Below, piece after piece: positions 849-49,273 of a stretch of DNA of 64,000 nucleotides (position 1 is the first letter of the stretch; each line of letters starts with the position of its first letter). The stretch spans positions 13,752,726 to 13,816,725 of the forward strand of contig CM119269.1 in NCBI GenBank assembly GCA_051294375.1. The letters are read 5' to 3'. The notes beneath the pieces are model-generated. The model was given only the letters and a program-made list of their open reading frames with translations. It searched no databases and was not told the DNA's origin. This stretch comes from Paraspadella gotoi (taxonomy: Eukaryota > Animalia > Chaetognatha). A program made the translations under genes and the position numbers.

Positions 849-884
<36 letters not shown>

Positions 885-3311
885 CTCTCTTCTCTCTCGT
901 CTCTCAATAATTAAATATTTTAAACCTTCCCTGCTTTTCAGTGGACCGACAATCTCTGCCACTGCCCCTCATTTGCGCCGCGTCCACGCGGCCACGGAGG
1001 TATCACCACGTGTCGGCCGCTTGATCGAATCTAGCGCCGCGGTTGGACGCCTTCCGCGCGGGGAGAGACCGCCGTTGGCGGTTGGCGTGCGGCGGGCGTC
1101 GTCACGGCGACGCCGGCGCGACGCGATTCTTGGCGCCGGCGCCAGCCTGAAAAAGGCTATGGGCGTTGGCGTCGGTTATATCAGGATGAGTGAGATCGCC
1201 GGTCTGGAAGCGCATTAAGGTCGTTTAATTCAGTTGATGAGAGAGCATAAGAGATCGAAGAGAGAGAGAGATGAGACGACGAGAGATCGAGAGAGAGAGA
1301 TGAGAGATGAGAGAGAGAGGAGAGTTTTGGTTCTAGAGTGACGGTAACGAGCACAGGACTCACAAGCAGCGTGCGTTTTTCATGTCGGTTAAGCGGTTCG
1401 AGGCGACGTCAATGGGCGCCAACTACTAACTAAGGTCGAGTAGACGTCTGACTGACAAATCTAAAAGCGTAAGTAAAGCGCACCGCGGGGGAAATGGTGG
1501 GAAGGAAAATATAATGTAAGCGGCCTAAGATCGGCCTTGCGTAAAAAAATGGTACACAGAGATCTGAACGGAGAGAGGGACGGTGAGAGGAGAAAGAGAG
1601 GAAAAAGCGTGAGATGAAAAACCTAAACCCTGGACTCGAGCTGGATCTCCGGCGAGGAGGGGGAGGAGGAGTGAGGAGAAAGAGTGAGTTAAACGGCTCT
1701 TGCATGGATGGCGAAACCTATCGGTGCTTTCTNNNNNNNNNNNNNNNNNNNNNNNNNCCAACCGCAACGGCGTCTCTCCGCCGCGCGTGAGAGCGTCCAC
1801 CGCGGCGCCAGATTCGATCAACAGGCGACACGTGATCCCGTGGCCGTTGGACGCGGCGCAATGAAGGGGCGTGGNNNNNNNNNNNNNNNNNNNNNNNNNA
1901 AACGAGAGAGAGTTGCCCACCCTCGCGCTCGACCCTACTGCGGCACTCATATTGAGTTGATTATAATTCGGCGAATTAACCAGGCGATTTGTCTTGCAAC
2001 GAAAGGCAAAACCAGTCACGTGATTCACAACCGTCACCTGAACATTTTAATTATTATCTTTTTTTGCCTTCAATATTTTTAACAATTTTTTGGGTATCCC
2101 AAAAGTTTGATTTTCTATTATTTTTAATTTTTCAAAAGTTTTTGACTGCAAAATTGTAGGGCCATGTTTTTGTTCAATACCTGGATAGTAATATAAACTA
2201 AGGATCAATCTTTAATTTTCAATTTTGTTGACAAATAAAGCAAGGCTACTTCATTAGTAAGTTATCATGACCTCTTATGTTTTGCTTTTTTTTATTGCGA
2301 GAGCAAAATTGTCTGCCTTCCTTTCAAATATTCAATAAATAGCCATTCGTAAGTCAAGATAAAGTAATTTTATTTTTGACGAAATATCGAAGACAATAGA
2401 AAATCGCATCGTGCATAAGTAAAGGCGATCTGAATTGTTTTCCCATTTTAACCCGTGACTCTCAGAAAGCACCGATAGGTTTCGCCATCCATGCAAGAGC
2501 CGTTTAACTCACTCTTTCTCCTCACTCCTCCTCCCCCTCCTCGCCGGAGATCCAGCTCGAGTCCAGGGTTTAGGTTTTTCATCTCACGCTTTTTCCTCTC
2601 TTTCTCCTCTCACCGTCCCTCTCTCCGTTCAGATCTCTGTGTACCATTTTTTTACGCAAGGCCGATCTTAGGCCGCTTACATTATATTTTCCTTCCCACC
2701 ATTTCCCCCGCGGTGCGCTTTACTTACGCTTTTAGATTTGTCAGTCAGACGTCTACTCGACCTTAGTTAGTAGTTGGCGCCCATTGACGTCGCCTCGAAC
2801 CGCTTAACCGACATGAAAAACGCACGCTGCTTGTGAGTCCTGTGCTCGTTACCGTCACTCTAGAACCAAAACTCTCCTCTCTCTCTCATCTCTCATCTCT
2901 CTCTCTCGATCTCTCGTCGTCTCATCTCTCTCTCTCTTCGATCTCTTATGCTCTCTCATCAACTGAATTAAACGACCTTAATGCGCTTCCAGACCGGCGA
3001 TCTCACTCATCCTGATATAACCGACGCCAACGCCCATAGCCTTTTTCAGGCTGGCGCCGGCGCCAAGAATCGCGTCGCGCCGGCGTCGCCGTGACGACGC
3101 CCGCCGCACGCCAACCGCCAACGGCGGTCTCTCCCCGCGCGGAAGGCGTCCAACCGCGGCGCTAGATTCGATCAAGCGGCCGACACGTGGTGATACCTCC
3201 GTGGCCGCGTGGACGCGGCGCAAATGAGGGGCAGTGGCAGAGATTGTCGGTCCACTGAAAAGCAGGGAAGGTTTAAAATATTTAATTATTGAGAGACGAG
3301 AGAGAAGAGAG

Positions 3312-3347
<36 letters not shown>

Positions 3348-3880
3348 ATGAAAGAGAGAGATGAGAGGAGAGAGAGAAGATGAGAGAGAGAGAGAGACAA
3401 AACCTCTAACCTCGTCGTTGACGTCTGCTCCTAAACTGATCAGCAATTTGGCGACGCCGTAATTCCCTTCGATCGACGCCGTCATTAGTGGCGTCTTTGG
3501 AATCCTCCATTCGCCGTCGGAAAATGACGCCGACAAAATGGCGGCGCCGAATCGAGTGTGGAGGCGCTGGAGTCGGTCGAAAAAAATATCAATTATGATT
3601 TAGGAAGAAAAGAAGGGGGTGCGGCATCTTTAACATTCCATTGGTCATTTGTTTTTTACCAACCTCATTTCAAATCTTATCAGCCTAATAATTGAGTACC
3701 ATTTCTTTCCGGGTGATTACATATTAATACAAGGATGAAACATTCTCAACTAGTTTGTTAGTTAGTTTAAAACCTTTCTTTCAAGTGTCTGCATAGTATT
3801 TACCAAAACATCTTACAATAAGTATGTAAGTTATAACATGTTTTATAACATTTGGCAGCGAGACAGTCAGACATAAAGGC
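262..3880. repeat. Large inverted duplication (arms ~262-1732 and 2464-~3880); 1-256 is also a direct copy of ~2187-2463; probably gap-filling artefact
   Basis: Identical ORFs on opposite strands whose coordinates sum to 4196 (1430..1705- = 2491..2766+; 1181..1363- = 2833..3015+). Outer parts of the arms differ by read-like indels. Two 25-N gaps lie inside. Confidence 0.9.
1758..1874 (-). CDS. Clean fragment of the ankyrin gene's last exon, isolated between two 25-N gaps
   Basis: Translates TPLHCAASNGHGITCRLLIESGAAVDALTRGGETPLRL, a canonical ankyrin repeat. The same exon occurs in noisy form at 2978-3254(-) and 942-1218(+). Confidence 0.85.
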
Positions 3881-5890
3881 GGACAGAAAGATAAACCAAC
3901 GGACAGACCGACCGAAAATTGGCGTATGATTTCCACCGCGACCACGACAGCGCCCTCACCCACCCCGATTTCTTCCTCATCAGGCGGCGCTCCTCGCCAC
4001 CCGCACGCCTCGTGAATTCGTCTCGCGGCGTTCATCATCGGCGCCGTCTCTTCTTCGACGATTCGAAACAGCGCCGCGTCGCCGTCACTCAAAACCGGCG
4101 TCACGACGTCGCTCATCGCGCAGAGTTTCCTAAATTGCGCCCGGCGTTCCTCCAGGTCGCGAAAGTTTAAAGCGGTCGATAAATCGGCGCCGTTTTGGAG
4201 AAGCGTAGCGACGACGTGGGCGTGGCCGCCGCGGATTGCGTGACGCAGAGGCGTGCCACCCGCGGCGTCGGGGGCGTCGACTGTGGCGCCGCCACGTAGC
4301 AGATCGGCGACGGCGATCGGGTGACCGTTGGACGCCGCCTGGACGAGAATTTTTAGATGGAATTAATTTATATTAAAACGAGAATAAAATGATTAACGAT
4401 ATCGAGTGAAGCAAATTTTTTTGACTATCGGCCTTGGATTTTTTAATAATAATAATGATGAAGATGATGACGTATGATGATGAGAATCATTGATGATCAT
4501 TGGATGATGGATGATGGTTGATTATGATGAAAAATACAAATAGTTGTTATACTTCTGTAATGGTCATTTGCTTTTAGGTTTCCTTCGCAAATAAATGAAA
4601 TTTTTCAAGAAAACAAAATCGATTCTTTAATTGTCGATTTCATTTGTCAGGGAAACCTTTTTCGCGCCCGACGGAGCAGCAGCTGCTGGCTGCAGCAGAT
4701 GGCGGACGCACGGCGGCAGCAGTAACAAATGAAATCAAAACTAACTAAAGCAAAGAAGGTTAGAAAACTCGCCTGAATGCAACGGAGGCTGGTGACGCCG
4801 CCCGCAACGACGGCCGTAACGTCCGCGCCCCAATTCACCAGCGCCGCCACGACTGTTGCGCGTCCGCGACGACGGCGGCCGGTGCAGAGGCTTCATCGTG
4901 GGCCAATCGTCGTCGCCGTGAAGTGTGCGGTCAACATCGCGTCGCCGTATTCCTCTCGAAGACGTTCTAGGGCGTCGAGATCCGATCGGCGCCCTTTCCA
5001 TCCGCAGGCGTCGTTGAAGCGGCGCCGTGGCGACGGCGAATCGACGGCGCGTCGATTCGGCGACGTCACGGATCGCTCGGATTGCGTCATCTTCGTCGTC
5101 TTTCGTTTGCCGCCTTTCTCCACCGACGTCTTCAGTTCGTCTCTCATCTTCAACAAAAAACTCTCCTCAAACTTCTCGTCCGCTTCGTCCAATTCGTCGC
5201 CGCCGACAAAGACCGCCGCCTTCGATCAGCGCCCCGCCGCCGATGATTTTCCGGTCGCGGATCGCCACACGCAGCGCCGGTTGACCAAGCCCGTCGCGGG
5301 CGTCGGGAGCGGCACCGCTGGAGAGGAGAGCGGAGCAGACGTCGGCGTTGATCTGAATGGAATACGTTGATGGGTCACTCGATTTGTCTCTCTCTCTCTG
5401 TAGAGATATTGCAGTTCGTGTAGCTCTTTGCCTTCATTAGACTTTCTTCCTAGCTCTTGATAGATAGTTCGCTTTTATGCTTACTTTGACCCTCTACTTT
5501 TCTACTTCCAGTTCAATAACAATAAGTAGCCAAAATTCCATGTCAGACGCAACGTTAGGGCTCTCCATACCCGTCCACAACGGCACTTTATTACGACCGT
5601 GTTACACTATGTCAGCAGTAGCCACGTCACCAGTCACGTCACCTCTGGTTCCACCATTTCCAATAACTTTAGTCAGAGGGCGATAAGACGCCCAACAACG
5701 AAGCCAACAAGACTGGACCTTGCGGGTGGCTACTAATGGGCGCCACAAGGCTTTCGGATGCGGGTCTTAACGAACGTCGGCGATGACGCCTGTGGACGGG
5801 AGTCAGCTTTCCTGCTACGACACAAGTATTGGCTGCACGACGGAAGCGCGAAGCGGCAGGGACTCCCGGCCCAGAGCGGGCAAACTCTCT

Positions 5891-5926
<36 letters not shown>

Positions 5927-6100
5927 CTCTTCTCTCTTCTCTCTCTCTCTCTCTCTCTCTTCACCTTTGAGCGCCGCTTCGAGCAGCGGAAAGGCGCCGT
6001 CGAGTCGGCGTTGGTTGACGTCGGCGCCGCGAGAAATCAAAAACTCGACGATGTCCGCGTCGCCGGATATAGAGGCCGTCATCAGGGGTTGTTGCGCCTC
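2978..6100 (-). CDS. Multi-exon ankyrin-repeat protein (exons ~6100-5965, 5317-4773, 4338-~3962, ~3585-3411, 3254-2978)
   Basis: Exon translations PLMTASISGDADIVEFLISRGADVNQRRLDGAFPLLEAALK; AASNGHPIAVADLLRGGATVDAPDAAGGTPLRHAIRGGHAHVVATLLQNGAD; KTPLMTASIEGNYGVAKLLISLGADVNDE. AG acceptors and GT (one GC) donors at most boundaries. Several frameshifts, probably read errors. Confidence 0.8.
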
Positions 6101-8001
6101 GAAAATGATAAGAAATAAAATAAATGCAAGCAGTAAAATGACAATAATAAAATATTAGTTATTTCTCTTTTTTTTTCTAAAGATGTTATCGTAACCTTTT
6201 TGCTTTCGGTTCAAATGAAAAAAGTGTCACGTAAAAACAAAATTATATAGAGTTCATATAATTTGCATATCGTAGTAAATTAAAGTCTTATAAGTTTTGT
6301 ACCATATATCAATATGTGACTTATTATCTAGGTTTAATAATCTGGTTTAGTAGTGGACATAAATGATTCCTAAATGATACAATCTCTTGAAGAGAAACAT
6401 CNNNNNNNNNNNNNNNNNNNNNNNNNNNNNNNNNNNNNNNNNNNNNNNNNNNNNNNNNNNNNNNNNNNNNNNNNNNNNNNNNNNNNNNNNNNNNNNNNNN
6501 NNNNNNNNNNNNNNNNNNNNNNNNNNNNNNNNNNNNNNNNNNNNNNNNNNNNNNNNNNNNNNNNNNNNNTCTCTCTCTCTCTCTCCCTCATGTATTTTTA
6601 TTTAAAAAAACAAAAAAGAACAAAAAGAACCTAAAGTCGGAAACATCTGAGCCCGTTAGTTTTGAGTTGACGCTCGCTCTTTCTTTTTCTTTTTCCATTT
6701 TTTTTTCAGCACTTTCACCTTTTCCTTGATCAATGAAAGAAAACAAATTAAACAATCGAGTTAAAGGCCAATCAAACAAATCAAAATAAAACAATCAAAT
6801 CAATCAAATCAATCAAATCAGTTTAAACCCGAACAGGAACTAACAGAACAAAACAGAATCGAAACGAAATGATTTTAAAAATCAAATTTAACAACTTTAT
6901 AAAGCTTCATAGTTTACGTTCTTCAAGTTGATATAAATCATTGATTATATCAATCTCTAAAAACAGAGCTGCCCTCTTAGTCGACCTATCCCCAACTCTT
7001 TCTCTTCTCGCTCCTCATTCCCAACTAATCTCAACCAGGAATGAGATTCTCTAGTGAATTTTCTTCGAAAGCCTTTTTTCGTGACAAATAAAAGAGGCGG
7101 AGGCTAAAGATCACGCCGCCAGTGACTTGGCGGTGATCGTAATTCGTACCACGTGACCACTGACCAAGCAAGATTGCTCAATGCTCAGGGGGTTAAGATG
7201 GTCAGGCGAGGGGGTCGGTATACGCGTACTGCGCAGTGTTGATAAAGATTATGTTCAGTTGTTCAATATTCTTCCAAAAGGAATTATTATCATTTTTCTT
7301 ATTCTTATCTTTATTATTATCTTTGTTATCGTTATTGTTATTGTTATTTGTGTTCTCGCAATGTTACAATTGAGATGTATCTTTCAGTTCATAGAACATT
7401 TTTTTCCGATAATCATTTGAAAGAGTTTCAACGATTCTCATCGATCTAAAATTCTAAATTAATGTTTTCCCTTTTACTCTAATTGTTTACTTTGTGCTAA
7501 GAGGAAAAAACAACAACAACAACAAGAGTTCACAAATTGCGGTTTCTGCTGAGAAGAAGAACTTTCTTCTTTCTTGGGGGAAAATCACCATTTCCTTTTA
7601 TCTCTCAGAAAAAGAAAAAAACATTGGAAAACGAATAGTGGNNNNNNNNNNNNNNNNNNNNNNNNNATGAGCTACCTCCTCCATCCCCCTCTTTCTCTTT
7701 TCCTCCTCCTCTATCATCATCAGAAGTCATTTCCCATGTTGTTCTTGTGTTTCTAAAAACAAAATCCTTGCAACATTAAGTTCCTGATATGCAACTGAGA
7801 GAGCGAGAGACGGAGAGACGGACGAGAGACGAGGAAGAAGATCGAGAGAGAGAGAGAGATGAGATGAGAGGAGAGAGAGAGAGTGGAAATAGGAAAATCT
7901 TCCAGGGGAATTTTTTTTCTTTCTTTTTACGCCGTAGAGATGTCGCGGTTCTTATCTCTTTTCTTGTTCTTCATTAGTCTTTCTCTCTTCTCTTCTCTCC
8001 G

Positions 8002-12914: not shown

Positions 12915-15739
12915 TCTCGGCTGTTTACCTTTTACCTGCCTTAGAATTGACTTTGTTTCAAGAACAAATATACTCGAAATATTAATCCGTCATGCGTAGA
13001 GAGCGAACAAAATTTTATTGTAAGTGAAGCCACATGATACGTATAAAGTGTTTTAACTTGTTTAAATCGTGATCATAATTAAAGAAATAACCGTGGCTAA
13101 TGGTTATGAGGTACAAGGAACACAGAGACATAGTCACGCATAATTCCATAAAGTAATTCCACCAAGTTGATTTCCAGTTAATCAGGAGTGATTGAAAGCG
13201 GATACGGATACTGAACTCATCTCAAACGGATAAGTTATTGCTGTTAATGCATTAATGATTATCTCTTTAATCATACTTATCGATTTGTTTCTTATCGTTG
13301 TGCTCATCGTCGTCGTGTTTCTGTTGTAGCCGAGAATAAAAAAAAATTGCTACAAACAATCTTAAATCATTTATTCATTCAATGATTAAGCTATTTCGCC
13401 GCCGACCTTTGACCAGCTAAGATGAGTAAAGGCAACCATCCTACAAGATAATGACTCTCACAGACCAAGGTTCTCTTTTCCCATTTAATTATTCTCACGA
13501 TCGAACGATATTCACTCTAGCGAGTCTAATCACTTAATATACTCTAATCAGTTGTTACAAAATTCTTATCGAATTCTTAATCTCAAAATTTAGGACAAAA
13601 AATAAATTAAAGATTAAAAAAATAAAAATAATTCAAAATATATTATAATAACATCGCAGGAGAATCAAAGAAGCTCATCGATGCCCGAATCTTTGCTGAT
13701 TGCATTCACTCGCTCTTTATTCGCGTCGCGCGTACTTCTTACAATGATCGGGCCGCCCGAGACATTGTTCCGCAAGTTGCAACACGTGGTCAATATGAAC
13801 GATTCCCTATATAATATTTCGAGGGAAAACCCGGGATGTTGATGCTTCGTTGAAGTTTATCCTAAACTTACATTTTTGAACCTCGCTACGTTAATTTTCG
13901 ACAAGTCTAAATATATAACCCTTTTTTAAAATTGTTATCATCCGTAGTTCCTTCGAAACCCTTCTTTCTTTTTCTTTGCCTAAAACGTTTATTTCGCCAA
14001 AATCTCGCTCGAGGTAAAACCATTACAATGTAGTGACGTATGTAATAACACTCGGACCACTTTGCGAGTTTCTCTCTCTTCACCTGAAAACCATGATCCA
14101 ACCTTGTTTTTTTTAATTCGCCCATAAAAAAAAGTCCCACCATGCGGTTTCAATACTCAATTAAAAAAAACAATTTAAAAAAACTTAAAACTTTTTCCTC
14201 GATTAGCAAAGAAAAAAAAAAAACAAAAAAAAAAACTGTTGCTCGGAAAATTAGCAAGGCTTTTATTTTAACGAAAAAAAACCGCTGTTCATGAATCCAG
14301 GGAGAAAAAAAAAGGGGTTTAAAAAAAAATAAAGATTAATGAGGACGAAAAGAGGTAAAATATCGAATCGTTTCTATCGCAACACTTTTGCTGATTCGCC
14401 GATCAAAAGAAAAAATCGGAGGTTAAATCGAATTCAATTTGTTTTATTTTCGGTTGAAATTAATTGTTAGATAAACAAATCAAACATCTCACGATAAAAT
14501 ATGACTTTTTCAGCTATTGACGGGAGAGAAATTTTTATTTTGACAAACTTCATTGTTCAGTAATACTTGCTCGTCGGAAAGTAAAATGGCCAAAACAAAA
14601 TTTGTTTTCCGACGAAACAAGAATAATATCTAAAGTTCGGTTATTACGCCCCATGGTTTCGTGAGGATCACATTTAATCTTTCCAGTTTCTATTGTAGTA
14701 ATAATATGGGCCAGATGCTCTTTTGCTTTGCTAGTTTTTAGTTCGGATTTTTTCCGCTTTAAAACTCGAGTGAGCAGGTAAAAACAGTAAGGACGAACAA
14801 AAGAAAAAAAAGAGTCAAACAGATTTTGTTATTATAATCATATTTTACTTTAGAACAAGCTAGCCGTTATAATATTAATTTGTCAAAATAAAATTCGATA
14901 ATTTGACAATTTACGCCTAGATTTATAAAATAAGTCCACTAGCTAGTCAACGTGAATAAATAAAAGGAAAAACTAAAAATACAGAAAACAATTGTAATCA
15001 ATTTAAGTATATTTGTGCTACAAACAAACAACTAAATTGTACTAGATAATGCACATACGAAATGGCAAAAAAAAAGGACGGTAAAATGAAATGAGACAAT
15101 GGAAGTTGCACTAGGGGTAGCCCCACTCAATGGGGTGAGTCAAAAATTTAGAGTATTTTGAGTACATGCTCAAACGAAAATTTATAAATTTTTAAGTATA
15201 CTTTCAATAGACAAAAAAATTCTTATATGGCTCTATGCCCTAGTAGTTAATTTTTTTAATATTTATTTATAGATAGCAAAGGCCAAACATTTTTGGAGAA
15301 TTTGTAAAATTTAAGACCAGATTCAGATAGCTCATAAAAAGTTGNNNNNNNNNNNNNNNNNNNNNNNNNGCTCTACACAAAGTTATACATCTCTTTTTCC
15401 TAAATACTTTTTAAAAGTGACAAACAATAAAAAAACCATATAATAAAAATCCATGATTTAGTCAGTTTTTTTCTACATTTTCACTTGAAAAACAATGATT
15501 TTTAAAAGCTGCTAATTATATTCTTGTTTAACTTTTTATTCTCTATAGAATCCATCAAATTTTTCTAATATTTAAAAAAAAGTTGCTTTCCCTATACTAG
15601 TAATATAATTTACTTAATTATGGCTATACCCTCAGAAGAAAGCATCTTTTACAAAAAATATTTATACCAGAAACATAATGTCCATGAGAGTCTATTAACG
15701 CCCTGCATATACACAATACATTTAAATTTCATCGAGCCT

Positions 15740-18700
15740 ATGGCTGTCTACATTGTTTGCCGATCTCTATTGCTCATCTCCAAGCAAACGAGTTCCATCT
15801 TCTCCTTGGTGATCCGTCACATTCCACCCAGAAGTACTAGCCTTCATTCAACAAGAAATCGAGAATTCGGAGACGCTATGTTGGCGGAAGAGCCGCGGCT
15901 CCAGCGGAGTCAGGGCGCGACTGGAAGTGGGAAAAGTAGATCAATGAGAGGTAAGTTTTTTATTTTTGGGTTGGGCAGAGTGTTAACACTTACCTTCGGT
16001 CGAGCAGCGAAAGAGGTTGGTATTTAGCGCAAAGGATTTCGAATCCTTCCTCGTCACCTTTCTCATCGGATCCGTCTCGTTCGTAATGGGACAAGACGCC
16101 TGGGGGGAGATATGAGGGAGTTGAAGGGATTGGCAGAGAGAAGAGAAGCACGAGAGAGAGCAGAGATGAAGAAGAGAGAGAGACGAGAGGAGAGATGCGA
16201 GAGACGATTAGAGAGAGAGAGAGAAATTGTGGAAAGAGAGGAAGAAAGAAGAAAGAAAGTAGAACTAACCAACCAACCCAACACCAACCAACCAAATTAG
16301 CGGAATTGACTTTATCCAACGATTGTCTTCTTCCCTTATCCTTCTGTCGAATGTTTAATCTCAAATCGTCCTAACAACAAAAGATCATTGTAAAATTCTA
16401 ATCAATTGTACAAATTTTAACTATTAATCAAATACAATTAAAGATTTGCCTCTCCTAGGTATGACTTCTTGATAACCCTCACACCGCTACCTAGATAAAT
16501 CCGTAGTTGCCGATGCCGCGCGAGCCTTTCCACATAATATGTCTATACTGCCGTTTTCGCCTCACTGGTCGCGTCGCTCCGTCCATAACTCTCCAGACGT
16601 CCACGCTCGGCGCTCATTTCGTACGCGAAGATCTCGTCAAACGTCATAACAATGGACGAAGTCACACGCGTCCGAGAGTGATATTTCCCTCCGCCTCACG
16701 ACGTCGAGGTAAGAGCACTGTCAGAAACCAACGAGAAAAACGAACTGCGGGCTCGGAGATTTTTAATCAACAAAAAAACACGTGTATGCAAAACATTTGC
16801 AATTTCTCTAACGCCTTCTAGGTGGGCGCTACATTCGGAACATTTTCGATTGTGGCGATCATTGTCCTTATCGATAGCGCGATATTTATCAAAGTCAGCC
16901 TTCTGCACTTACCTTCTTCTCATCGAATTCTTTTCGTTAGTTCTATTTTATATTGAACTCGGGACGCAGAACAAGTGCTACGCCTTACTTTTTTATTGCC
17001 CGCATACTCGCGCCGCCTATTCACATACTTGGGAATTGATATAATAGCCTCTTTCGTGGTATTCCAGTCACACGCTCCATCAATGTGCCCACACGTCTGT
17101 CTGCAAATACGATTGAACAGCTCTCATATCTCATTTTTTCGTCGTCGAATCCAAAGCTGATAGATAGTCTAACTAACCGGTCAAATTTGACGTGTCGCAA
17201 CTATTACGCTCAGGCGTCCATGAAACATGCACTGATCGACCCTCTTCATACAGATAATGACACATGCGATTTGACGATCTCTTTCTGAAAATTCCATCAC
17301 ACAGATACTATCGCGCTTTTCTCACGTCTAGACGATACCCCTTACTTCTTTCACACCCTCGCGTCTGCGGTGCTATACGCACATTCTCCTATCATCGTAA
17401 GACGACGCCAGTCCCGACGGCAGGATGCTAGCGATCCAGATCGGACGCGGGCCGGACGCCGCGCCTGTAGCTGCGCATCATTCAATCCAGCGATATCCCG
17501 CTTCCGTCGAGTCCCGCGACGAGGCGCTTGGCGCGCTCTGCCATATTGAAGATATTGGACGGATGCTCTTTTGTTCCGCGAGTATACGCCATGCCTGAAG
17601 ATACATTAATATTAGATAATTTTTTAATTGATTTCATCTACTAATTTATTAAATGGTAAAATTGTAACTATTTCGATGTCAATAAATGAACGTACGAAAC
17701 CTTACCAACTCGGTTGAACTTAAGAAAAAAATTTAATGTAGTTTTGTCGGGGATTATTCAGTTTAATTTTTGTCTTAACATTTATTCTAGTCGGAATAAA
17801 AGAAGAATGCTAGAGAAATACAGTAAAGCAATATATTTTTTTTAAATATACATTGCATGTGTGGGACCATACGATAGTGGTATGTCTTCTCTTTATCTTA
17901 AACAGAGCAGTTGTCTTATTGCTTCAACTAACATAGAGCATTATATCAAAGAATGTCAAAACAATTAATATATCGGCAAAAGGCTGAGAAAGCAGTTAAT
18001 TTGAATCTTTATTCAGATTTTAAAATCCATAATTACCGTTCGTCGTATGACTTTTTAAATTTTTTCTCTTTATTATCAGTCCCACCCCTGTACACCTTTC
18101 ATCAGAAAACCTTATATGGCCAATCCAAGACCACCAAACGATAGATATTTTAAACAAAATTTATTTTTTTATTATTTTTTTTTAAAAGTCTTAATGACAC
18201 TTCTGCACATATTATTATTATTATTATTATATTTTTATTATTATTAATTATTATCATTATTATTATTATTATTATATTATTCTATTATTATTATCCCGCA
18301 TCGTAAATATCAGCGCCACCTTCTTGAAACCTCCGTCGGTTCAACCAACCGGCGTTCATTTTAGCGCCCACGACGCCGAATCATCGACTCTGAGCATGCG
18401 TCGTCCGCTGACGCAGACGAATTCGAAGACACTCGCTCGCGAGAAGGCCGCCCCTCCGGCCATATCGAGAGGCGCGTTCTGTTCCTACGTCGACGCGCCG
18501 TACGACGACGCCCCGTGGCGCCGGTGGGGACCTCGACCGAGCAGCTCGCGACCACACTAGACATCTGAACGTAGATGGGCGATAGTATTACTTTATGTCA
18601 TATTTCGACTATGATTGTATTTTGACTACTTGATTGATCTGAGCTCTACCTTTAGTTTCAGTCCTCTTGTGAATCAATTATTTGATTGATTAGAACTGTA

Positions 18701-19230
18701 TTTGATTGATCTTATTGAATGTTGATTGATGGAATTGCATGATCGATTGATCATTCGATTCACATCAACTTTCACTCATTCTTCATTAATATTTCATAGT
18801 GGATTATTCTTTTTTTTGGATCGATAGGATGATTTTTCAGGGATCGATCCGCATAGTTATATAAAATTTATTGCAATTTATTCATCGAAAGATTAATTGT
18901 TGCTGATGATCGGATTTCTTATCATCGACTCGTCTTCCAATTAATGCAATACATATTCCGTCATTCTGTAGGTTAAATCAGTCATTAAATTTTCAATCAT
19001 TCTGTTAACCAATCAAATCGTGATCAATCATAAACAAACAACTCTCCTCTTCACACTCAACGACGTTCGCTACACGCGCGCTTCTACACCATACTGGGGT
19101 GGATTCGCTCCGATTGATTCGTCGCGAAAATCCTACTTGAAGTATCCTCGTTTCCTTCGGCGACAGTCACTCCCGGAGCCGCCGGCCGTTTATGAGTTCG
19201 CAGAGGCAGTCGTCATCGTGGTCAGTTATC
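15740..19230 (-). repeat. Second, noisy tandem copy of the 3' part of the DM9-SOCS gene (offset 4261 from ~20000-23390)
   Basis: ORFs 16112/20373, 16507/20768 and 17085/21346 are identical at a constant offset of 4261, including apparent errors; the flanks differ by indels. Confidence 0.85.
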
Positions 19231-19446
19231 TTGGACTCTCTTCCTTTTTTAAAGAACCAACCAACCAACCAACCAACCAACCAAATAGCGGAATGACTTT
19301 TCCAACGATTGTCTCTTCCTCCTCTGTCGAATGTTTAATCCTCAATCGTCCTAACAACAAAAAAATCATTTGTAAAATTCTAATCAAATTGTACTAAATT
19401 TAACTTTAATTCAATACAAAATTAAAGATTTTGGTAGGATATTTAC

Positions 19447-19647: not shown

Positions 19648-19999
19648 CTGGCGGAAATTTAAAAAAAAAAAAGGAAAATGACAATTTCAAGGCGTTGGCG
19701 ACGCATCGAACATTCGATTTGATCATTTGTTTTCGATTAGCCTCGATTCAAATCCTCATTTACTTTATAATTCTTTTTTTAGTTATTTTTATATGAACGA
19801 GGGCAAAAGGGCGGATACTTTTTTATTGCCGATCGCGTGATTACAATGGAATGAAAAAGCTTTTCGTGGTATATCACCTATCAATCTGCCACACGTCTGT
19901 ATGCAAATGAGATTGATGAGCTCAATCTCATTTTCGGTTGAATCAAAAGTATAGATTAGATAATAAGTCAAGATTTGAGNNNNNNNNNNAAATTTCATC

Positions 20000-22439
20000 G
20001 GCTATGGCTAGTCGTACATTGTTGCTCGATGCTCTATGCTCATCCCAGCCAAACGAGTTCCATTTTCTCTTTGGTGTTCGTCGACGATCCATTCCAGAAG
20101 TAGCGCTTCATCAAAGAATCGGGAATCGGGAGACGCTTGATGTTGGCGGGAAGACCGCGGCTCCAGCGGAGGATCCGGGCGCGACTGGAAGTGGGGAAAA
20201 GGTTAGATCAATGTGAGGTAAGTTTTTTATTTTTGGGTTGGCAGAGTGTAAACTTACCTTTGGTCGAGCAGCGAAAGAGGTTGGTATTTAGCGCAAAGGA
20301 TTTCGAATCCTTCCTTCACCTTTCTCTCGGATCCGTCTCGTTCGTAATGGGACAAGACGCCTGGGGGGAGATATGAGGGAGTTGAAGGGATTGGCAGAGA
20401 GAAGAGAAGCACGAGAGAGAGCAGAGATGAAGAAGAGAGAGAGACGAGAGGAGAGATGCGAGAGACGATTAGAGAGAGAGAGAGAAATTGTGGAAAGAGA
20501 GGAAGAAAGAAGAAAGAAAGTAGAACTAACCAACCAACCCAACACCAACCAACCAAATTAGCGGAATTGACTTTATCCAACGATTGTCTTCTTCCCTTAT
20601 CCTTCTGTCGAATGTTTAATCTCAAATCGTCCTAACAACAAAAGATCATTGTAAAATTCTAATCAATTGTACAAATTTTAACTATTAATCAAATACAATT
20701 AAAGATTTGCCTCTCCTAGGTATGACTTCTTGATAACCCTCACACCGCTACCTAGATAAATCCGTAGTTGCCGATGCCGCGCGAGCCTTTCCACATAATA
20801 TGTCTATACTGCCGTTTTCGCCTCACTGGTCGCGTCGCTCCGTCCATAACTCTCCAGACGTCCACGCTCGGCGCTCATTTCGTACGCGAAGATCTCGTCA
20901 AACGTCATAACAATGGACGAAGTCACACGCGTCCGAGAGTGATATTTCCCTCCGCCTCACGACGTCGAGGTAAGAGCACTGTCAGAAACCAACGAGAAAA
21001 ACGAACTGCGGGCTCGGAGATTTTTAATCAACAAAAAAACACGTGTATGCAAAACATTTGCAATTTCTCTAACGCCTTCTAGGTGGGCGCTACATTCGGA
21101 ACATTTTCGATTGTGGCGATCATTGTCCTTATCGATAGCGCGATATTTATCAAAGTCAGCCTTCTGCACTTACCTTCTTCTCATCGAATTCTTTTCGTTA
21201 GTTCTATTTTATATTGAACTCGGGACGCAGAACAAGTGCTACGCCTTACTTTTTTATTGCCCGCATACTCGCGCCGCCTATTCACATACTTGGGAATTGA
21301 TATAATAGCCTCTTTCGTGGTATTCCAGTCACACGCTCCATCAATGTGCCCACACGTCTGTCTGCAAATACGATTGAACAGCTCTCATATCTCATTTTTT
21401 CGTCGTCGAATCCAAAGCTGATAGATAGTCTAACTAACCGGTCAAATTTGACGTGTCGCAACTATTACGCTCAGGCGTCCATGAAACATGCACTGATCGA
21501 CCCTCTTCATACAGATAATGACACATGCGATTTGACGATCTCTTTCTGAAAATTCCATCACACAGATACTATCGCGCTTTTCTCACGTCTAGACGATACC
21601 CCTTACTTCTTTCACACCCTCGCGTCTGCGGTGCTATACGCACATTCTCCTATCATCGTAAGACGACGCCAGTCCCGACGGCAGGATGCTAGCGATCCAG
21701 ATCGGACGCGGGCCGGACGCCGCGCCTGTAGCTGCGCATCATTCAATCCAGCGATATCCCGCTTCCGTCGAGTCCGCGACGAGGCGCTTGGGCGCGCTCT
21801 CCATATTGAAGATATTGAGGATGCTCTTTTGTTCCGCGAAGTATACGCCATGCCTGAAGATACATATAATATTAGATAATTTTTTAATTGATTATTACTA
21901 ATTCTATTAAATGTAAAATTGTAATATTTGATGTAATAAATGACGTACGAAACCTACCAACTCGGTTGGAACTTAAGAAAAAAATTTAATGTAGTTTTGT
22001 CGGTGATTTTAGTTTAATTTTTGTCTTAAAATTTATTCTAGTTCTGATAAAAGAAATATGTAGAGAAATAAGTAAATGAATATATTTTTTTTAAATATAC
22101 ATGATGGTGGGACCATACGATAGTGGTATGTCTTCTCTTTAATTTAACAGAGCAGTTGTCTTTTGCTTCATAAAATAAGCATTATATCAAAGAATTCAAA
22201 ACAATTAATATATCGGCAAAAGCTGAGAAAGCAGCTTAATTTGAATCTTTATTCAGATTTTAAAAATAATTACGTTTCGTCGTAGTGACTTTTTAAATTT
22301 TTTTCTCGTTTATATAGTCCCACCCCTGTAATTTCTCAAAAATTATATGCCAATCCAAGACCACCAAACGATAGATATTTTAAACAAAATTTATTTTTTT
22401 AATTTATTTTTTTAAAAGTCTTTATTGAACTTCTGCATA

Positions 22440-22534
<95 letters not shown>

Positions 22535-24205
22535 CCCGATCGTAATCATCGCCACCTTCTTGAAACCTCCGTGGTCCAACCAACCCGGCGTCGATTTAGC
22601 GCCCACCGACGCCGGAATCATCGACTTCAGGATGACGTCGCCGCTGACGCAGAGAATCTCGAAGCAGCTCGCTTCGCAGAGGCGCCCCTCGCGGCGATAA
22701 CGGAGGCGGCGTCGTTCGACGTCGACGCCGCCGACGACGACGACGTGGGCGCCGGTTGTGGGATCGACGAGGAAAGCGCGACCCACATAGATAATCTGAA
22801 CGGAGGGCGATTGATTGATTGATTTGATTGATTGATTGATTGAATTGATTGATTTGATTGATTTATTGACTTGATTGAATAATTGATTTGATTGATTAGA
22901 TTGATTTGATTGATTTAATTGAATGTTTGATTGATTGATTGATTGATCGATTGATCGATTGATTCATACTTTCATTCATTCGTTCATTAATAATTTCATA
23001 GTGTGATTGATTCTTTTTTTGATCGAAGGATTGATTGTTTAGGGATCGATAGATAGTTTATAAATTTATTGCATTATTCATCGAAAGATTAATTCGTTGT
23101 ATGATCGATCTTATCAATCGACTCGTCTTCAATTAATGCAATACATAATTCCGTCATTTCTGTAGGGATTAAATTCAGTCATTAAATTATTCAATCAGTT
23201 CTTTAACCAATCAATCGATCAATCAAACAAGGTCGTCCACTCACGCGTTTCGCCACGGGGTCGAATCCGCCGATGACGGCGAAATCGTTGAAGAGTTCCT
23301 CGTTTCCTTCGGCGACGATCCACTGGAGGCCGCGGCGTTTATGATTCAGCAAGAGGCAGTAGTCGTCATCGGTGGTCAGTAGAAAATCTTTTGGGGGTAA
23401 ATGTAAAATGTAAAATGTAAATGTAATGTAAAATCTTTGGGGCTAAATGTAAATGTAAAATCTTTTGGGGGGGTGGGTGAGGCGAGATGTGAAGTGATTT
23501 ATCGGCGTTAGGGGGGGGGTACCTTACCCTCGGCACCGTCGAAGTCCATTTTAAAATCTTTAATTTTCATTGAGGCCGGGGTCATTTGTTCGTTTTCCGA
23601 TGCGGAACCTGGGATCGATCGAAGAGAGAAATCGAAATATCATTTAGAGTCTGGAGGGCTGTTAATAAACGAGAAAATTAAATCTTTCTTGAAAAACATC
23701 ATTTATCTTTATCTTTTTATCGTCTTAACTGTCAAATTGTTTCTTTTATTTCAGAAAAAATAAATCATCATTTCGTTGAAGGGACGGAGTCTTTATCCAA
23801 AATTAGCAGACAATATTTAACTTGATTATTAAAGGAATGGATAATTTTGGTGTCGAGACAGCTTATATATTGCATGAATTAAATTTATTTAAATTGGTTT
23901 CATCAATTACAAAAATGAGTGCATTTTTTTACTTTAAGCTTTCAAGTAAGGAGACCCTTTAAACACCTATACATCGGTAATCTATTCTTACTCGAAATCT
24001 TACTCCGTCTCCTCACGGCGCCCGGTTCGTATTGGGCCCGGCTCGCGTATCCGGGCAACGTCACCAGGACCGCGCCGACCAAGACGACGCTGCCGTCGGC
24101 GTCTCGACCGGCGACCACGCCGGAATTGAAGACGTGTTCCGGCGTCAATCGTTGAGAGGACGAAGGAAGCCAATAGAAGTCCGGAGGGGAGGAGGAAGAG
24201 GACAT
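20000..24205 (-). CDS. DM9-repeat (lectin-like) protein with C-terminal SOCS box; exons 24205-24004, 23608-23528, 23387-23245, 22795-~22540, 21853-~21615, ~21010-20750 (noisy), ~20400-20258, 20184-~20000
   Basis: The first four exons join in phase through GT-AG: ...FYWLPSS..GVVAGRDADGSVVLVG..YEPG...LQWIVAEGNEELFNDFAVIGGFDPVAKR/IIYVGRAFLVDP..EGRLCEASCFEILCV. A later exon reads YERDGSERKVKEGFEILC. The last junction gives PLSLLDQS/RARILRWSRGLPANIKRLPIPDSLMKRY (BC box plus LPxP Cul5 box). Confidence 0.75.
22440..22533. repeat. (ATT)n microsatellite in an intron
   Basis: Pure ATT run; source of the poly-Ile ORFs. Confidence 0.95.
22808..22965. repeat. (GATT)n imperfect microsatellite in an intron
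   Basis: Repeated gatt/tgat units. Confidence 0.85.
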
Positions 24206-24360: not shown

Positions 24361-24920
24361 AACAAGTTTGAGCAAACAATGCCGGATCTAAATAATTAAT
24401 TAATAATTAATCCGGCATTTTTTGTACAAACTTTTTTTCTTAGGTCTTTTCGTCACTGACCACAACAAAAGCAAAACACGACGATGATGTAGACGACGAC
24501 GATAACACCGACGATTAATTAATTAATTAATTGACTGATAAATTAATTAATTTATAAATTGATTATTTAATTGATCAGATAATTGCTTAATTACTTGATT
24601 AATTATTTGATTAATTAATGCAGCTTGAATTTATATTTAGTATATAAAAAAAGCATATAATCAATTCTTAAAACAGGTTTTTCGTTTTTTCCGAAGCTAA
24701 AGACGGACGCTTATGATCGTGGCTTTGCTCAAACTGGTTTTTAATTAGCTTCTCCTTCTTGAAAAGCCAGTTTTCTTCTGTGTCTATCTTTATTTCTTTG
24801 CATGTTTCTCTCTCCTCCATTTCGTGTCTTTTTCTTTTGATTTTTTGCATATTGATGTCTTTTAATAATAATGTCTTTTGATTTTTAGTCGGATCTGCTT
24901 ATCAACATGCGTATTGCGTA
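24361..24920 (-). mobile_element. Fragments of the Helentron/DINE-1-like (HINE) family
   Basis: aacaagtttgagcaaacaatgccggatct terminus at 24361; opposite-orientation terminus ttttagtcggatctgct at ~24884. Confidence 0.65.
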
Positions 24921-25299: not shown

Positions 25300-26290
25300 G
25301 GGCGATCCCGGAGTTGAATTCCCTCTGGAGGCTCATGGGAAAACGAAGAGAAAGAAGAGGAAAAAATAAAGTTCGTTTCTTTACGGAAAAGAAAATTTAA
25401 AACCGTAACAACAATGATATTAAAAACGTTTTTAAGCTTAACGAGCTAAGGATTTCTTTTTAATTATTTTAAAAAATTAATTATAATATTTTTTTTTCAT
25501 TGCCTTTGATAGATATTTACAAAATAACAGTTTTATTCATTTAATAATTCGGATATGTTTTGGTTCTTGTTTTTTGAACCTTCATCAACCAGTTTTAATA
25601 GTTTTAATAAATATTTGGATACTAACTTTGAGAGATAGAGAGAGAGGCAATTATAACCTTGATATCTCTCACTCTCTCCGAATTATTAAATGACCATTGT
25701 AATCATAAATAAAAACTTTTACTTTGTAAATGTTATTATTATATTTTTTATAAATTTATTAATATTTAAATATTATTTTTTGAAATGTTAAATTATTGTA
25801 TACTTAAGCCGAAAATTAATTTTAAATTTAACTTTAATTTACCTTAACTTACCCCTAACCCAAACTTACCCCTAACCTAAACTGACCTCTACCCCTAACT
25901 TACCCTTACTCCTAACTTACCCTAAACCCTAACTTACCCCTAACCCTAACTTACCCCAAACCCTAACTTACCCCTAACCCTAACTTACCCCTAACTTATT
26001 TTTAACCTAAATTTATTTTTCTAGTTAACTTATACTTATTCTTAATTTATTCTTAACCATAATTTATTGTAACCTTAATTTTTACCCAAATTTATATTGG
26101 TTGTACCAAATGTAACAATAATAAAAAATATTTAAAAAAAATTATATCTGAATTCCTTTATTTTTTTCCCCGAAACGTTATCCTCTTCCGTTCCATTTCG
26201 TTCCTCTTCATTTTTCCGTTAATTCTTTAAGAAAAACCTTGCTCTTCGTTTTCCCATAGGCCTCCAGAGGGCATTGATCTCGAGGAATGA
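25300..26290. mobile_element. Two inverted copies of a short SINE-like repeat flanking a dispersed element with a CCCTAA-containing minisatellite
   Basis: ccctctggaggctcatgggaaaacgaagag at ~25320 and its near reverse complement at ~26243-26272. 25575-26000 matches 62195-62700 and ends in (ccctaacttac)-type repeats. Confidence 0.55.
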
Positions 26291-38880: not shown

Positions 38881-41800
38881 TAAATTAAAATCATATAAAT
38901 ATTAATAAAAATAATAGATTATAAAATAAAATAAACAAATATATAAATACATATCAATCAAATAATCAAAAAATAAAAAATAAATATACTTATTTAAAAA
39001 AATAAAAAATATATATAAAAGAATGTAAAACTATAAATTAGCATATATAAATAAATAATCCAAATAACAGGAATAAAAACACAAAGCAATCCCAAAATAA
39101 ACATAAATCTATTTAATTCCATTATATAAATTTAAAATACTAATTTCAATTTAATAGTAAATAATAAAATCACAAACATATCCTAGGCAAATATAATTAA
39201 AAGAAACAAAAAAATAAAATAATTTATAAAACTATAAAATAACATAATAAAATACATTTTAATTAAATATATAAAAAATCAGAAATTTATAAAAAAATAA
39301 CGCAAAATATATAACATAACTAGATAAATAAATAATACTATGATAATAATGAATAATTCAAAAAAAAACATCAAATAAAAATCATAAAAAAAAGAATAAA
39401 ATGAAAAAAACAAATAACATATAAACATTCATAACTATATTAAAAATATTTAGTATATCGCATAAAAAAATAATAATATATCATCACAAATAATAAATAT
39501 ATGAAAAATAATAATCAGCATTAAAAAAAATTAATTATAATAATACATAAACATTCAAAACAATAATAAAAATTCAATAATCATTAAAAAAAAATAAAAA
39601 AAAACAGTATATTAATCCATAAATAAATCAACTTAATCATCAATTGAAATAAATACAAAATATGAAAAGAAATATAAAATAAATCAAACAAAATATACAA
39701 TTAATATAAGAAAATGAAATATAATAATAATAAAAAATAACTAAAAGTCATAATATATAAATGATTTAAATCAATACTTGATAATAAGAATCATTAATAT
39801 ATATCTATATATAAAAGTATAATATAAATAATAAAAAAAATTTAAGATATATATATAAATCCATGATAAATAAAGGATATATATACAATAATGTATAACA
39901 CAAATAAAATCACAATATAAATTATATTAAAATAATCCAAATGAAAGAAAATATTATAAATCCCTCAATATATAATCAAAATTCCCTAAAAAATAATAGA
40001 AAATAATCAAATCATTCAAGAAAAATATAAGCATTAAATATATTAAAAATATATCCAATATAATCAACTAAAAAAATATATAATATCATATAAACAAAAA
40101 TAAAAATCAAGAATCTATCATAATCATACAAAGATAAATCCATATAAAAAATCCCAAAACATCATATTTAAAAATTTATCAAATAAAATAAATCCTATAA
40201 ATAAATAAAATAATTCAAATTGAAATATAAAAAAAAGTATATAAAAAATTCTTAAAATAAAAAATAATCATCCATAATTAATAAAAGACAAATAATAATC
40301 ATAGAATCTAATATTCTTAAAATGAATATATAACAAAAATATTCAAAAATAAAAAAAATAAAAATATAACTAATATAAAAATTCAATTATGATATAATAA
40401 TAATAAAAACAAAACTATATTAATATAATAACTTATATCAATTTTATAATAAAACAATATCCAATATATAAAATAACAATATGAAATCATCCATAAACAA
40501 AAAAAATCAAATATCATAGTTAAATATATTATATATATAAAGAAGAATCAATAATAACATTATACAATACATATTAATAAAAAATTAAAAATGATATATG
40601 AAAAATATAAACCAAATATATAAAAAATATAATTAATAATAAAATATAAATATAATAATACAATAATAATATATATGAAATTATAATATCAAATAAATGA
40701 TAAAAAAATAAATCAATAAAAAATTTATAATAACAAAAATATTAAAAAAATAATAAATAAAAATAATTCATCTTCAAATAATAAATATATTAGATGAAAA
40801 ATAAAATACTAAAAAAAAGTAAAATTATATACCATAAAATCAAAAAATAAATCATCAATAAAAATATATGTTATAATTCAAATATAAAAATAAAAAACAA
40901 AAAATAACAAATAAACAGTAATATCATCACTCATAATATAAAGAATTTAGAATACAAAAAATCTGTATTAATATCCAGATTAAAATAAAATATACATAAA
41001 AAAATTCATTATAAAATAATCAATAAAAAAAAGAATAAATAATATGAAAATTGATAATATTAAAATATAAAGATTAATTATAATAACTAATATAACACCA
41101 ATCCAATTAAAAATAAATAAATATCATAATACATAAATAAATAAAATATAATTCATAATAATAGACTCAAATAAAATAAAATAATAATTATACAATATAT
41201 TAATCATTTAAAATATTAAAGAAAAATATAAATAGAATCATAAATTCATTTATAATTATACATATATAATTAATAAAGATTAAAAAATAGAAAAATAATT
41301 AATATACATCCCTAATATATAATAAATCTTATATTCAAAATCTTAGATTACAGAATATAGAAATATAAAATATAATAAGATTCTAATTTACAAATAATTA
41401 GAAATAATAATAAAATCTAATATTATTAAAAAAAATATACATATAATATAGAATATAATAAAAATGATATAAATATCAAATATTAATTATTAAATCCATT
41501 CTCAATAATAATAACTGATAGCAAATCAAGAATATGAATATATGAATAACAGTGGGAGGCAGGGGGTAGGGTGAGCGCACGGATGTAATATAAAGTAAAA
41601 ACAATTTACCATATAAGACCAAAACTTCAAAATAATAATCTTATATGAATATAATAAATTATACTCCCAAATAAATATAAAAGATAATTGATAAAAAAAT
41701 CAATCACTAAACTTATATAATAGTCAAAACATATATAAATTCATAATGATTAACTAAATAATCCATTAAATAATCAATTCATGAATTATATATAATGAAT

Positions 41801-49221: not shown

Positions 49222-49273
49222 TAAGTACTTATCTCTGTCCTGTGAATTTGATTTAATTGACCTTCTTTATCAG

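What the first reader, a model, noticed from the sequence alone, without database searches (positions are those of the whole stretch)
20000..24205. DM9 lectin repeats fused to a SOCS box: candidate sugar-recognising Cullin5-ElonginBC substrate receptor
Seen: spliced exons give roughly 4-5 DM9-like units (W...P..AV.GG....YVGRA....G.E....FEILC). The last unit runs directly into PLSLLDQSRARI...IKRLPIPDSLMKRY across a canonical 73-nt intron (20185-20257). No signal peptide follows the ATG at 24205. Known: DM9 proteins (oyster CGL1/DM9CPs, natterin N-termini) bind mannose-type glycans and microbes. SOCS boxes (BC box plus LPxP) recruit ElonginBC-Cul5. The glycan-reading ubiquitin ligase adaptors I know are F-box proteins (Fbs1/FBXO2 family). 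Inference: a cytosolic CRL5 adaptor that tags exposed glycans on damaged organelles, ERAD substrates or intracellular microbes. I do not recall this architecture being characterised, but could not search.
Basis: partly seen in the sequence, partly recalled or inferred. Interest (0 to 1): 0.85.

Follow-up and report, generated by a model that had tools for sequence, protein, structure and literature searches.

The report
Lectin-fold protein with ubiquitin-ligase docking tail
A spliced animal gene joins several worn-down copies of a sugar-binding protein fold to a tail that matches the docking motif of a cellular protein-destruction machine, so it likely selects targets for disposal, but most of its readable sugar pockets lack key residues and the targets are more likely proteins than mannose sugars.

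Summary
The observation largely holds. An RNA-type contig splices 20258 to 20184, joining the last DM9-like unit to a SOCS-box-like tail. A DM9 profile built from 287 natural units scores the N-terminal and C-terminal parts at 19.5 and 18.2 bits; the best of 2000 shuffles reached 7.6 and 6.4. The tail fits the published BC box fully and the Cul5 box except its last aromatic. The middle of the gene (about 21740-20345) is error-ridden assembly fill, present twice; two exons were recovered from a cleaner copy at 19647-19282. Three units are statistically supported and a fourth is partly supported.

The sugar-sensing reading is weaker than proposed. Only the last unit keeps the Lys that natural DM9 units almost always have (279 of 287), and its pocket lacks both aromatic residues. 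Best reading: an ElonginB/C-Cul5 substrate receptor with a repurposed DM9 fold. No homologue was found, and five literature searches showed no DM9+SOCS description. This scan has noted DM9+SOCS before, in tunicates and a sponge (unchecked notes). Nothing was tested for binding.

The parts
24004..24205 (-). Exon 1: presumed ATG and first part of DM9-like unit 1
   Evidence: Open frame, GC3 0.76, GTAAGA donor; DM9 profile 6.3 bits; hhalign probability 54%, E 1.3e-4. Start codon not verified.
23528..23608 (-). Exon 2: insertion-bearing middle of unit 1
   Evidence: AG/GT ends and frame continuity; junctions inferred, not seen in reads
23245..23387 (-). Exon 3: end of unit 1, start of unit 2
   Evidence: AG/GTGAGT ends, GC3 0.73; junctions inferred
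22556..22795 (-). Exon 4: rest of unit 2 (YVGRA ... FEILC); 3' end uncertain, three candidate donors without and three with the micro-exon
   Evidence: Unit 2 scores 10.9 bits; ESM Atlas ranks 2, 3 and 7 are DM9 clusters, scores 0.81-0.85, a lead only; donors listed
21958..21971 (-). Possible 14-nt micro-exon
   Evidence: Polypyrimidine-AG and GTAGGT flanks; not tested in reads
21739..21853 (-). Readable start of exon 5
   Evidence: AG acceptor; one frame has GC3 0.69 against 0.41 and 0.53
20345..21738 (-). Error-ridden assembly fill that hides further exons; holds noisy twins of exon X (20981-20756) and exon Y (20631-20556)
   Evidence: Identical to a second copy over 1406 bases, twins 72% and 84% alike; 21480-21010 resembles the last unit, 0 of 150 shuffles reach its score
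19447..19647 (-). Cleaner copy of exon X, misplaced 3' of the gene: end of the penultimate unit and start of the last unit
   Evidence: Open frame, AG/GT ends, GC3 0.67; hhalign to DM9 over 42 columns, E 0.003, probability 10%
19282..19350 (-). Cleaner copy of exon Y: middle of the last unit with the conserved Gly-Lys
   Evidence: AG/GT ends; its last 7 bases match the RNA contig's loose end just before exon 6, the noisy twin does not
20258..20360 (-). Exon 6: end of last DM9-like unit and first half of the BC box (first 23 bases error-ridden in the assembly)
   Evidence: 20258-20337 matched by the RNA contig with no difference
20185..20257 (-). 73-nt GT-AG intron inside the BC box
   Evidence: Skipped in the RNA contig
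20040..20184 (-). Exon 7: rest of the SOCS box, 19-residue tail, stop codon
   Evidence: Covered by the RNA contig; Pfam SOCS_box positions 10-35 of 39, E 0.055; motif match
15724..19240 (-). Second, error-ridden copy of exons 3-7: likely assembly artefact
   Evidence: 91% alike with 193 gap positions over 3374 columns, yet identical in the middle

Best explanation
The gene is spliced and encodes divergent DM9-fold repeats followed by a SOCS-box-like tail; the protein likely docks on ElonginB/C and Cullin-5, and likely uses its repeat array to hold a protein target, rather than mannose, for ubiquitination. Shown: the last splice junction, DM9-like sequence in three to four units, and the motif match. 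Inferred: a length of roughly 520-600 residues with up to six units, cytosolic location, ElonginB/C binding through the BC box, and Cul5 choice through the LPxP motif. Least certain: what the repeats bind. Most readable pockets have lost residues that CGL1 needs, so the fold was probably repurposed, as with the sugar-blind lectin-fold F-box protein FBXO44 and the DM9-fold motility protein MFP2. A residual weak sugar site in the last unit is not excluded.
For: Junction in an RNA-type contig. DM9 profile 19.5 and 18.2 bits against best shuffles 7.6 and 6.4 of 2000. BC box (S,T,P)LxxX(C,S,A)xxx-hydrophobic (PMC4878042) matched exactly; Cul5 box core (PMC2988792) matched; both together in 1 of 200,000 shuffles. 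Pocket residues: Lys in 279 and Glu in 282 of 287 natural units. Unit 2 has no Lys in that stretch in any register, unit 1 has Ala (by eye) or Arg (MAFFT), and the penultimate unit has Ile for Glu and Cys for the loop aromatic. K43A abolishes mannose binding in CGL1 (PMC5712788). Precedents for lectin folds without shown sugar binding: FBXO44 (PMC6389600) and MFP2 (PMC3110756, PMC8106982). No hydrophobic N-terminus.
Against: The last unit keeps the Gly-Lys and, in the HMM alignment, the Glu; Fasciola DM9-1 binds mannose without the Asp. One or two units could not be read, so an intact pocket could lie there. Alignments of such divergent units are uncertain (HMM and MAFFT differ by one residue at the Glu). 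The Cul5 box lacks its final Tyr/Phe at the consensus position and also fits the Cul2-box pattern. Pfam SOCS_box is below cut-off on exon 7 alone. Earlier unchecked notes say tunicate and sponge DM9+SOCS proteins keep one pocket.
Confidence: 0.47

Rival explanations
1. A glycan-sensing CRL5 receptor: the last repeat pair, or the unreadable units, would still bind exposed mannose-type glycans on damaged organelles, mislocated glycoproteins or microbes and bring them to Cul5.
For: Last unit keeps Lys and probably Glu, the two residues called most important (PMC8106982). An oyster DM9 protein acts as an intracellular microbe sensor (PMC12379375 abstract). F-box lectins Fbs1-3 do this job for SCF (PMC6389600). 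Unchecked notes of one kept pocket in other animals.
Against: In the last pair the site-A equivalent has lost Glu and the loop aromatic, and the site-B equivalent has lost both aromatics (natural units: 275 and 262 of 287 aromatic). CGL1 site B is already the weaker one (PMC4932603). Units 1 and 2 lack the Lys.
Confidence: 0.3
2. An ElonginB/C-binding protein that would use Cul2, or no cullin, rather than Cul5.
For: The tail fits the Cul2-box pattern and misses the last position of the Cul5 box.
Against: LPIP fits the LP-hydrophobic-P motif that defines the Cul5 box; the box is C-terminal, as in SOCS-box families; the Cul2 pattern is loose.
Confidence: 0.12
3. The true N-terminus lies upstream and would add a signal or membrane segment, so the protein would not be a free cytosolic adaptor.
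For: The ATG follows an acceptor-like CAG-G; a hydrophobic, Cys-rich exon-like stretch with a GT donor lies near 24460-24513.
Against: That stretch would splice into a frame that closes after about 20 codons. The known exons use 1368 of the contig's 1925 nt, and the unreadable middle can take up most of the other 557. A SOCS box needs cytosolic partners (established knowledge).
Confidence: 0.07
4. The fusion is an assembly or annotation artefact, or the tail resembles a SOCS box by chance.
For: The locus is visibly misassembled, with duplicated error-ridden fill; only one run holds it; no homologue was found.
Against: The RNA contig joins exon 6 to exon 7 and runs on into exon Y; the motif pair occurs in 1 of 200,000 shuffles.
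Confidence: 0.04

Closest known systems
CGL1 / CgDM9CP-1 of Crassostrea gigas (PDB 5id8, 5idb, 5mh0-5mh3; two-DM9 mannose lectin)
   Same: DM9-type repeats with the W...P..AV..G....YVGR and G-K...F/YE-L pattern; the PDB entries match the DM9 profile at about 100 bits, and this gene's parts match a related profile at 18-20 bits.
   Different: CGL1 has two units and nothing else. This gene has four to six far more divergent units (below Pfam detection exon by exon), a SOCS-box tail, and lacks most pocket residues.
SOCS-box CRL5 substrate receptors (ASB, SPSB and others)
   Same: N-terminal recognition domain plus C-terminal BC box and LP-hydrophobic-P cullin box.
   Different: The recognition domain is a DM9 array, not found with a SOCS box in five paper searches or in 120 listed DM9 proteins; the last Cul5-box aromatic is displaced by one residue.
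Lectin-type F-box proteins Fbs1/FBXO2, Fbs2/FBXO6, Fbs3/FBXO27 and the sugar-blind FBXO44
   Same: Lectin fold fused to a cullin-adaptor box; FBXO44 shows that such a fold can have no detectable sugar binding.
   Different: Different fold, different box (F-box/Skp1/Cul1); an analogy, not homology.
Ascaris MFP2 (PDB 2bjq; Pfam PF12150)
   Same: Cytosolic protein of four DM9-like units with no assigned sugar binding. A cluster with MFP2b members is rank 7 in the Atlas; 2bjq is rank 3 of 48,161 for a poor model, Z 2.9, rmsd 2.9, 46 aligned, tied with unrelated rows.
   Different: No SOCS box; acts on sperm MSP polymerisation. No sequence-level link was shown here.
Natterins (DM9 x2 + aerolysin domain)
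   Same: DM9 repeats.
   Different: The C-terminus here is a SOCS box, not a pore-forming domain; the unread part (at most about 185 codons) partly resembles another DM9 unit.

Membership tests
DM9 repeat family (PF11901) | Match to the Pfam DM9 model above its 26.2-bit cut-off | tested here: inconclusive
   No single exon piece hits; the units are split by introns and the spliced protein could not be scanned against Pfam.
DM9 repeat family (PF11901) | Repeated 60-75 residue units matching a DM9 profile above chance | tested here: met
   Custom profile of 287 units: 19.5 and 18.2 bits against best shuffles 7.6 and 6.4 of 2000; reversed sequences below 0.
DM9 repeat family (PF11901) | Two-unit beta-sheet fold of CGL1/MFP2 | tested here: inconclusive
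   Only exon 4 was folded, without alignment, pLDDT 47; Foldseek found nothing at E<=0.001; MFP2 at Z 2.9, tied with unrelated rows.
CGL1-type mannose lectins | Pocket Lys and Glu (K43/E59 or K114/E130) | tested here: inconclusive
   Missing in units 1 and 2 (Lys) and in the penultimate unit (Glu); Lys kept and Glu kept or shifted by one in the last unit; one or two units unreadable.
CGL1-type mannose lectins | Stacking aromatics (H52/F126 or Y123/F55) completing a pocket | tested here: not met
   No readable pair has a complete set: the loop aromatic is Cys in the penultimate unit, and the RNA-supported start of exon 6 has no aromatic at either position.
CGL1-type mannose lectins | Measured mannose binding | not testable with these tools
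   Needs protein.
SOCS-box (CRL5) substrate receptors | BC box (S,T,P)LxxX(C,S,A)xxx-hydrophobic | tested here: met
   Exact match across the confirmed junction.
SOCS-box (CRL5) substrate receptors | Cul5 box hydrophobic-xx-LP-hydrophobic-P-xx-hydrophobic-xx-(Y/F) | tested here: inconclusive
   All positions met except the last, where Tyr lies one residue later.
SOCS-box (CRL5) substrate receptors | Pfam SOCS_box above 23.5 bits | tested here: inconclusive
   14.1 bits, E 0.055 from exon 7 alone, which lacks profile positions 1-9.
SOCS-box (CRL5) substrate receptors | Box at the C-terminus behind a substrate-binding domain | tested here: met
   Directly after the last DM9-like unit, about 20 residues before the stop.
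SOCS-box (CRL5) substrate receptors | Binds ElonginB/C and Cul5 | not testable with these tools
   No Elongin sequence was held and the BC box spans an intron, so no complex was modelled.
Natterins | C-terminal aerolysin domain | tested here: not met
   The RNA-confirmed C-terminus is DM9 unit, SOCS-like box, stop.

The most novel reading that the evidence does not exclude
This is a long, multi-repeat member of an undescribed animal family of DM9-fold Cul5 receptors. Its last unit, placed right against the SOCS box, keeps one live sugar pocket, making it a glycan-reading CRL5 adaptor that tags exposed mannose glycans on ruptured organelles or intracellular microbes: a counterpart of the F-box lectins on a different cullin, while the other units read the protein part of the target.
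Probability: 0.27. Interest if true: 0.8.

Novelty: new variant of a known kind. Interest (0 to 1): 0.5.

Why it matters
SOCS-box proteins choose what Cul5 ligases destroy, and each new recognition domain defines a new class of targets. DM9 + SOCS box was not found in the papers searched. If the fold still binds sugar, it would be a glycan-reading CRL5 receptor and an invertebrate route to tagging damaged organelles or microbes. If it does not, it is a clean case of a lectin fold turned into a protein-recognition module. Comparing this pocket-poor long form with the short tunicate and sponge forms noted elsewhere in the scan would make the question directly testable.

Tried and rejected
No whole genome is held, so paralogues and Elongin/cullin genes could not be checked. 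Run search: no holder on record as RNA; one run guessed as RNA. Homologue searches: exon 4, longer proteins, 0 of 79 candidates at E<=1; exon 7, no candidate; exon 4 against 1.84 billion representatives gave 1 hit, a bacterial cadherin-repeat protein, rejected as spurious. PDB by sequence: exon 4 one chance hit at E 3.2, exon 7 none. Atlas with exon 7: no usable hit. Viral contigs: DM9 pattern 0 matches, exon 7 no relative. DM9 profile search: none of the best 120 of 239 hits lists PF07525 (119 not shown; lengths 73-265 only), and none of the 120 matched a BC-box-like pattern. Single-sequence fold of exon 4 was poor. hhalign of single exons against 46 DM9 proteins gave probabilities of 19, 54, 10 and 4%: weak, same direction. 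Frameshift-tolerant reading of the noisy middle: the DM9 profile did not recover even the known exon X twin, so only self-comparison was used; 21760-21480 gave nothing (93 of 150 shuffles as high), the cleaner copy 19979-19660 was marginal (8 of 150). A third DM9 unit across exon 4/5 was not supported in any of 6 splice models (best 2.9 bits; shuffles of one model reach 6.8). The idea of a real tandem gene duplication was rejected in favour of an assembly artefact (identical error-ridden middle). No Rfam match in the window. Look-ups of earlier findings near this place and by sequence returned nothing. Three of 33 metagenome loci (L004, L009, L012) were left out of the first profile as non-DM9 chance matches.
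Full report
Setting. The window is AT-rich (GC 0.354), intron-bearing, animal-like DNA with small N gaps. No genome is held, and the organism was not identified.

Gene anatomy. On the minus strand, exons with AG/GT ends chain in frame from ATG 24205: 24205-24004, 23608-23528, 23387-23245 and 22795 to about 22556. Third-position GC is 0.73-0.77 in exons 1, 3 and 4 and 0.54 in exon 2. Exon 5 starts at 21853, possibly after a 14-nt micro-exon at 21971-21958. These junctions are inferred from sequence only.

The assembly is broken in the middle. Bases 15724-19037 repeat 19990-23230 at 91% with many one-base gaps, yet 1406 of 1406 bases of the middle are identical in both copies, and that middle does not read as coding sequence. 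This pattern is what error-ridden long-read gap fill inserted twice would give (inference). A third, partial copy at 19979-19230 is cleaner and holds two readable exons, X (19647-19447) and Y (19350-19282), whose noisy twins lie at 20981-20756 (72%) and 20631-20556 (84%).

Transcript evidence. One run holds the locus (RNA is the tool's guess; share 0.17). Laid on 19995-20395, one 1925-nt contig of depth 50 skips 20185-20257 exactly, with GT-AG ends on the minus strand and 80 letters on the shorter side. Its loose end at 20337 shows that the first 23 bases of exon 6 are error-ridden in the assembly. It then runs into 7 bases that match the end of the cleaner exon Y and not its noisy twin. So exon Y, exon 6 and exon 7 are joined in one transcript. 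Only this 401-base stretch was laid; exons 1-5 were not checked against reads. The modelled exons use 1368 of the contig's 1925 nt, leaving 557 for the unread middle and the 5' UTR. If the contig is near full length, the protein has roughly 520-600 residues.

DM9 test. Single exons do not hit Pfam DM9. I collected DM9 proteins from metagenome loci (a test protein hits PF11901 at 183.7 bits) and a database search, and built a profile from 287 units. The spliced N-terminal part scores 19.5 bits (unit 1 start 6.3, unit 2 10.9) and the C-terminal part 18.2 bits (last unit 16.7 over profile positions 10-72 of 75). The best of 2000 shuffles scored 7.6 and 6.4, and reversed sequences scored below 0. 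The ESM Atlas returned DM9 clusters at ranks 2, 3 and 7 for exon 4, at scores 0.81-0.85 with a low recognition value, a lead only. The end of a penultimate unit aligns at the start of exon X, and the noisy stretch 21480-21010 resembles the last unit under a frameshift-tolerant alignment (28.5; 0 of 150 shuffles as high; the cleaner copy 8 of 150; an intron control 126 of 150). Two further slots could not be scored. Count: three units supported, a fourth partly, room for up to six.

SOCS test. Across the confirmed junction the sequence reads S-L-x-x-x-S-x-x-x-I, an exact fit to the BC-box consensus (PMC4878042, passages). Ten residues later I-x-x-L-P-I-P-x-x-L fits the Cul5 box (PMC2988792, passages) except that the closing Tyr is one residue late; the looser Cul2-box pattern also fits. 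Both motifs together arose in 1 of 200,000 shuffles. Pfam SOCS_box matches exon 7 alone at 14.1 bits, E 0.055, profile positions 10-35 of 39, under the 23.5 cut-off; the missing positions lie in exon 6.

Does it bind mannose? CGL1 site A uses Asp22, Lys43, His52, Glu59, Phe126 and Ala127; site B uses Lys114, Tyr123, Glu130, Phe55 and Ala56, and is weaker (PMC4932603, passages). D22A and K43A abolish binding (PMC5712788, passages). Fasciola DM9-1 binds without the Asp, and Lys and Glu are called the key residues (PMC8106982, passages). I placed these residues on the profile through the PDB alignment. Among 287 natural units, Lys is present in 279, Glu in 282, and the two aromatics in 275 and 262. 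In this gene, unit 1 keeps Asp, the loop aromatic and Glu but has Ala (by eye) or Arg (MAFFT) for Lys. Unit 2 keeps Asp but has no Lys anywhere in that stretch and no Glu at the column. The penultimate unit has Ile for Glu and Cys for the loop aromatic. The last unit keeps Gly-Lys, keeps Glu in the HMM alignment (shifted by one in MAFFT), has a basic residue for Asp, and, in the RNA-supported reading of exon 6, no aromatic at either position. No readable pair has a complete pocket. The best candidate is a site-B-like remnant next to the SOCS box. Unread units could change this.

Location. The first 15 hydropathy windows peak at -0.14; the most hydrophobic window (1.52, residues 30-48) lies in a DM9 strand region. 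An in-frame stop lies 31 codons upstream with no Met between, but the ATG follows an acceptor-like CAG-G, so an upstream exon is possible and untested.

Mechanism. Shown: spliced transcript, DM9-like units, motif match. Inferred from established CRL5 biology: the BC box binds ElonginC/B, LPIP selects Cul5-Rbx2, and whatever the N-terminal array holds is ubiquitinated. I put the adaptor role at about 0.85-0.9 overall. For the target I favour a protein surface (0.47) over canonical mannose glycans (0.30). Precedents: FBXO44 has a lectin fold and no detectable sugar binding (PMC6389600, passages), and MFP2 is a cytosolic four-DM9 protein with no assigned biochemical activity (PMC3110756 and PMC8106982, passages). 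On the other side, an oyster DM9 protein acts as an intracellular microbe sensor (PMC12379375, abstract and outline).

Relatives and print. No sequence relative was found, which is weak evidence given the short queries. None of the best 120 of 239 DM9 proteins lists a SOCS box. Paper searches: DM9 + SOCS box, 1 paper, unrelated mentions (PMC9024128, passages); DUF3421 + SOCS, 0; natterin + SOCS box, 1 (PMC12064177, listing only); DM9 + Elongin, 0; DM9 repeat + ubiquitin ligase, one fungal work (PMC10282164, listing only). A natterin review has no mention of SOCS (PMC8402412, passages). The library lacks most subscription papers, no supplements were read, and InterPro could not be queried. Two earlier notes of this scan describe DM9+SOCS genes in tunicates with sponge relatives, said to keep one pocket. 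I could not obtain those sequences, so kinship with this gene is untested.

Verdict. A real, transcribed DM9-fold/SOCS-box gene: a new variant of a known kind of ligase adaptor, apparently not in print, already seen by the scan on other DNA. The glycan-sensing claim is possible but not favoured for this divergent member. Interest 0.5.

Noticed in passing
window 262-6154: Ankyrin-repeat exons on the minus strand (Pfam Ank hits at 3784-4362 and 5672-6154), with an inverted duplication 262-1732 / 2464-3878 at 93% around N gaps; possibly another gap-fill artefact.
   Followed up: partly
window 24460-24513: Short GC-richer stretch upstream of the ATG that reads as a hydrophobic, Cys-rich peptide on the minus strand and ends at a GT donor; could be a 5' UTR exon or part of another gene.
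   Followed up: partly
window 20077: The RNA contig differs from the assembly at one base, changing an Asn codon in the tail after the SOCS box.
   Followed up: partly
window 25841-25995 and 62631-62697: 17-base tandem arrays with a telomere-like look inside a dispersed repeat shared by 25571-25906 and 62192-62698.
   Followed up: no
window 50234-51175: About 940-base imperfect inverted repeat (75% self-match); shorter ones at 43464-43695 and 56835-57023; possible fold-back or miniature transposons.
   Followed up: no
window 39000-43200: Extremely AT-rich stretch (GC 0.12-0.26) made of degenerate short tandem repeats.
   Followed up: no
window 43598-49769 and 53943-58067: Several 400-700-base repeat families at 73-89% identity in both orientations.
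   Followed up: no
window 29862-33494: GC-rich exon-like open frames with no convincing Pfam match among the 4 pieces scanned.
   Followed up: partly
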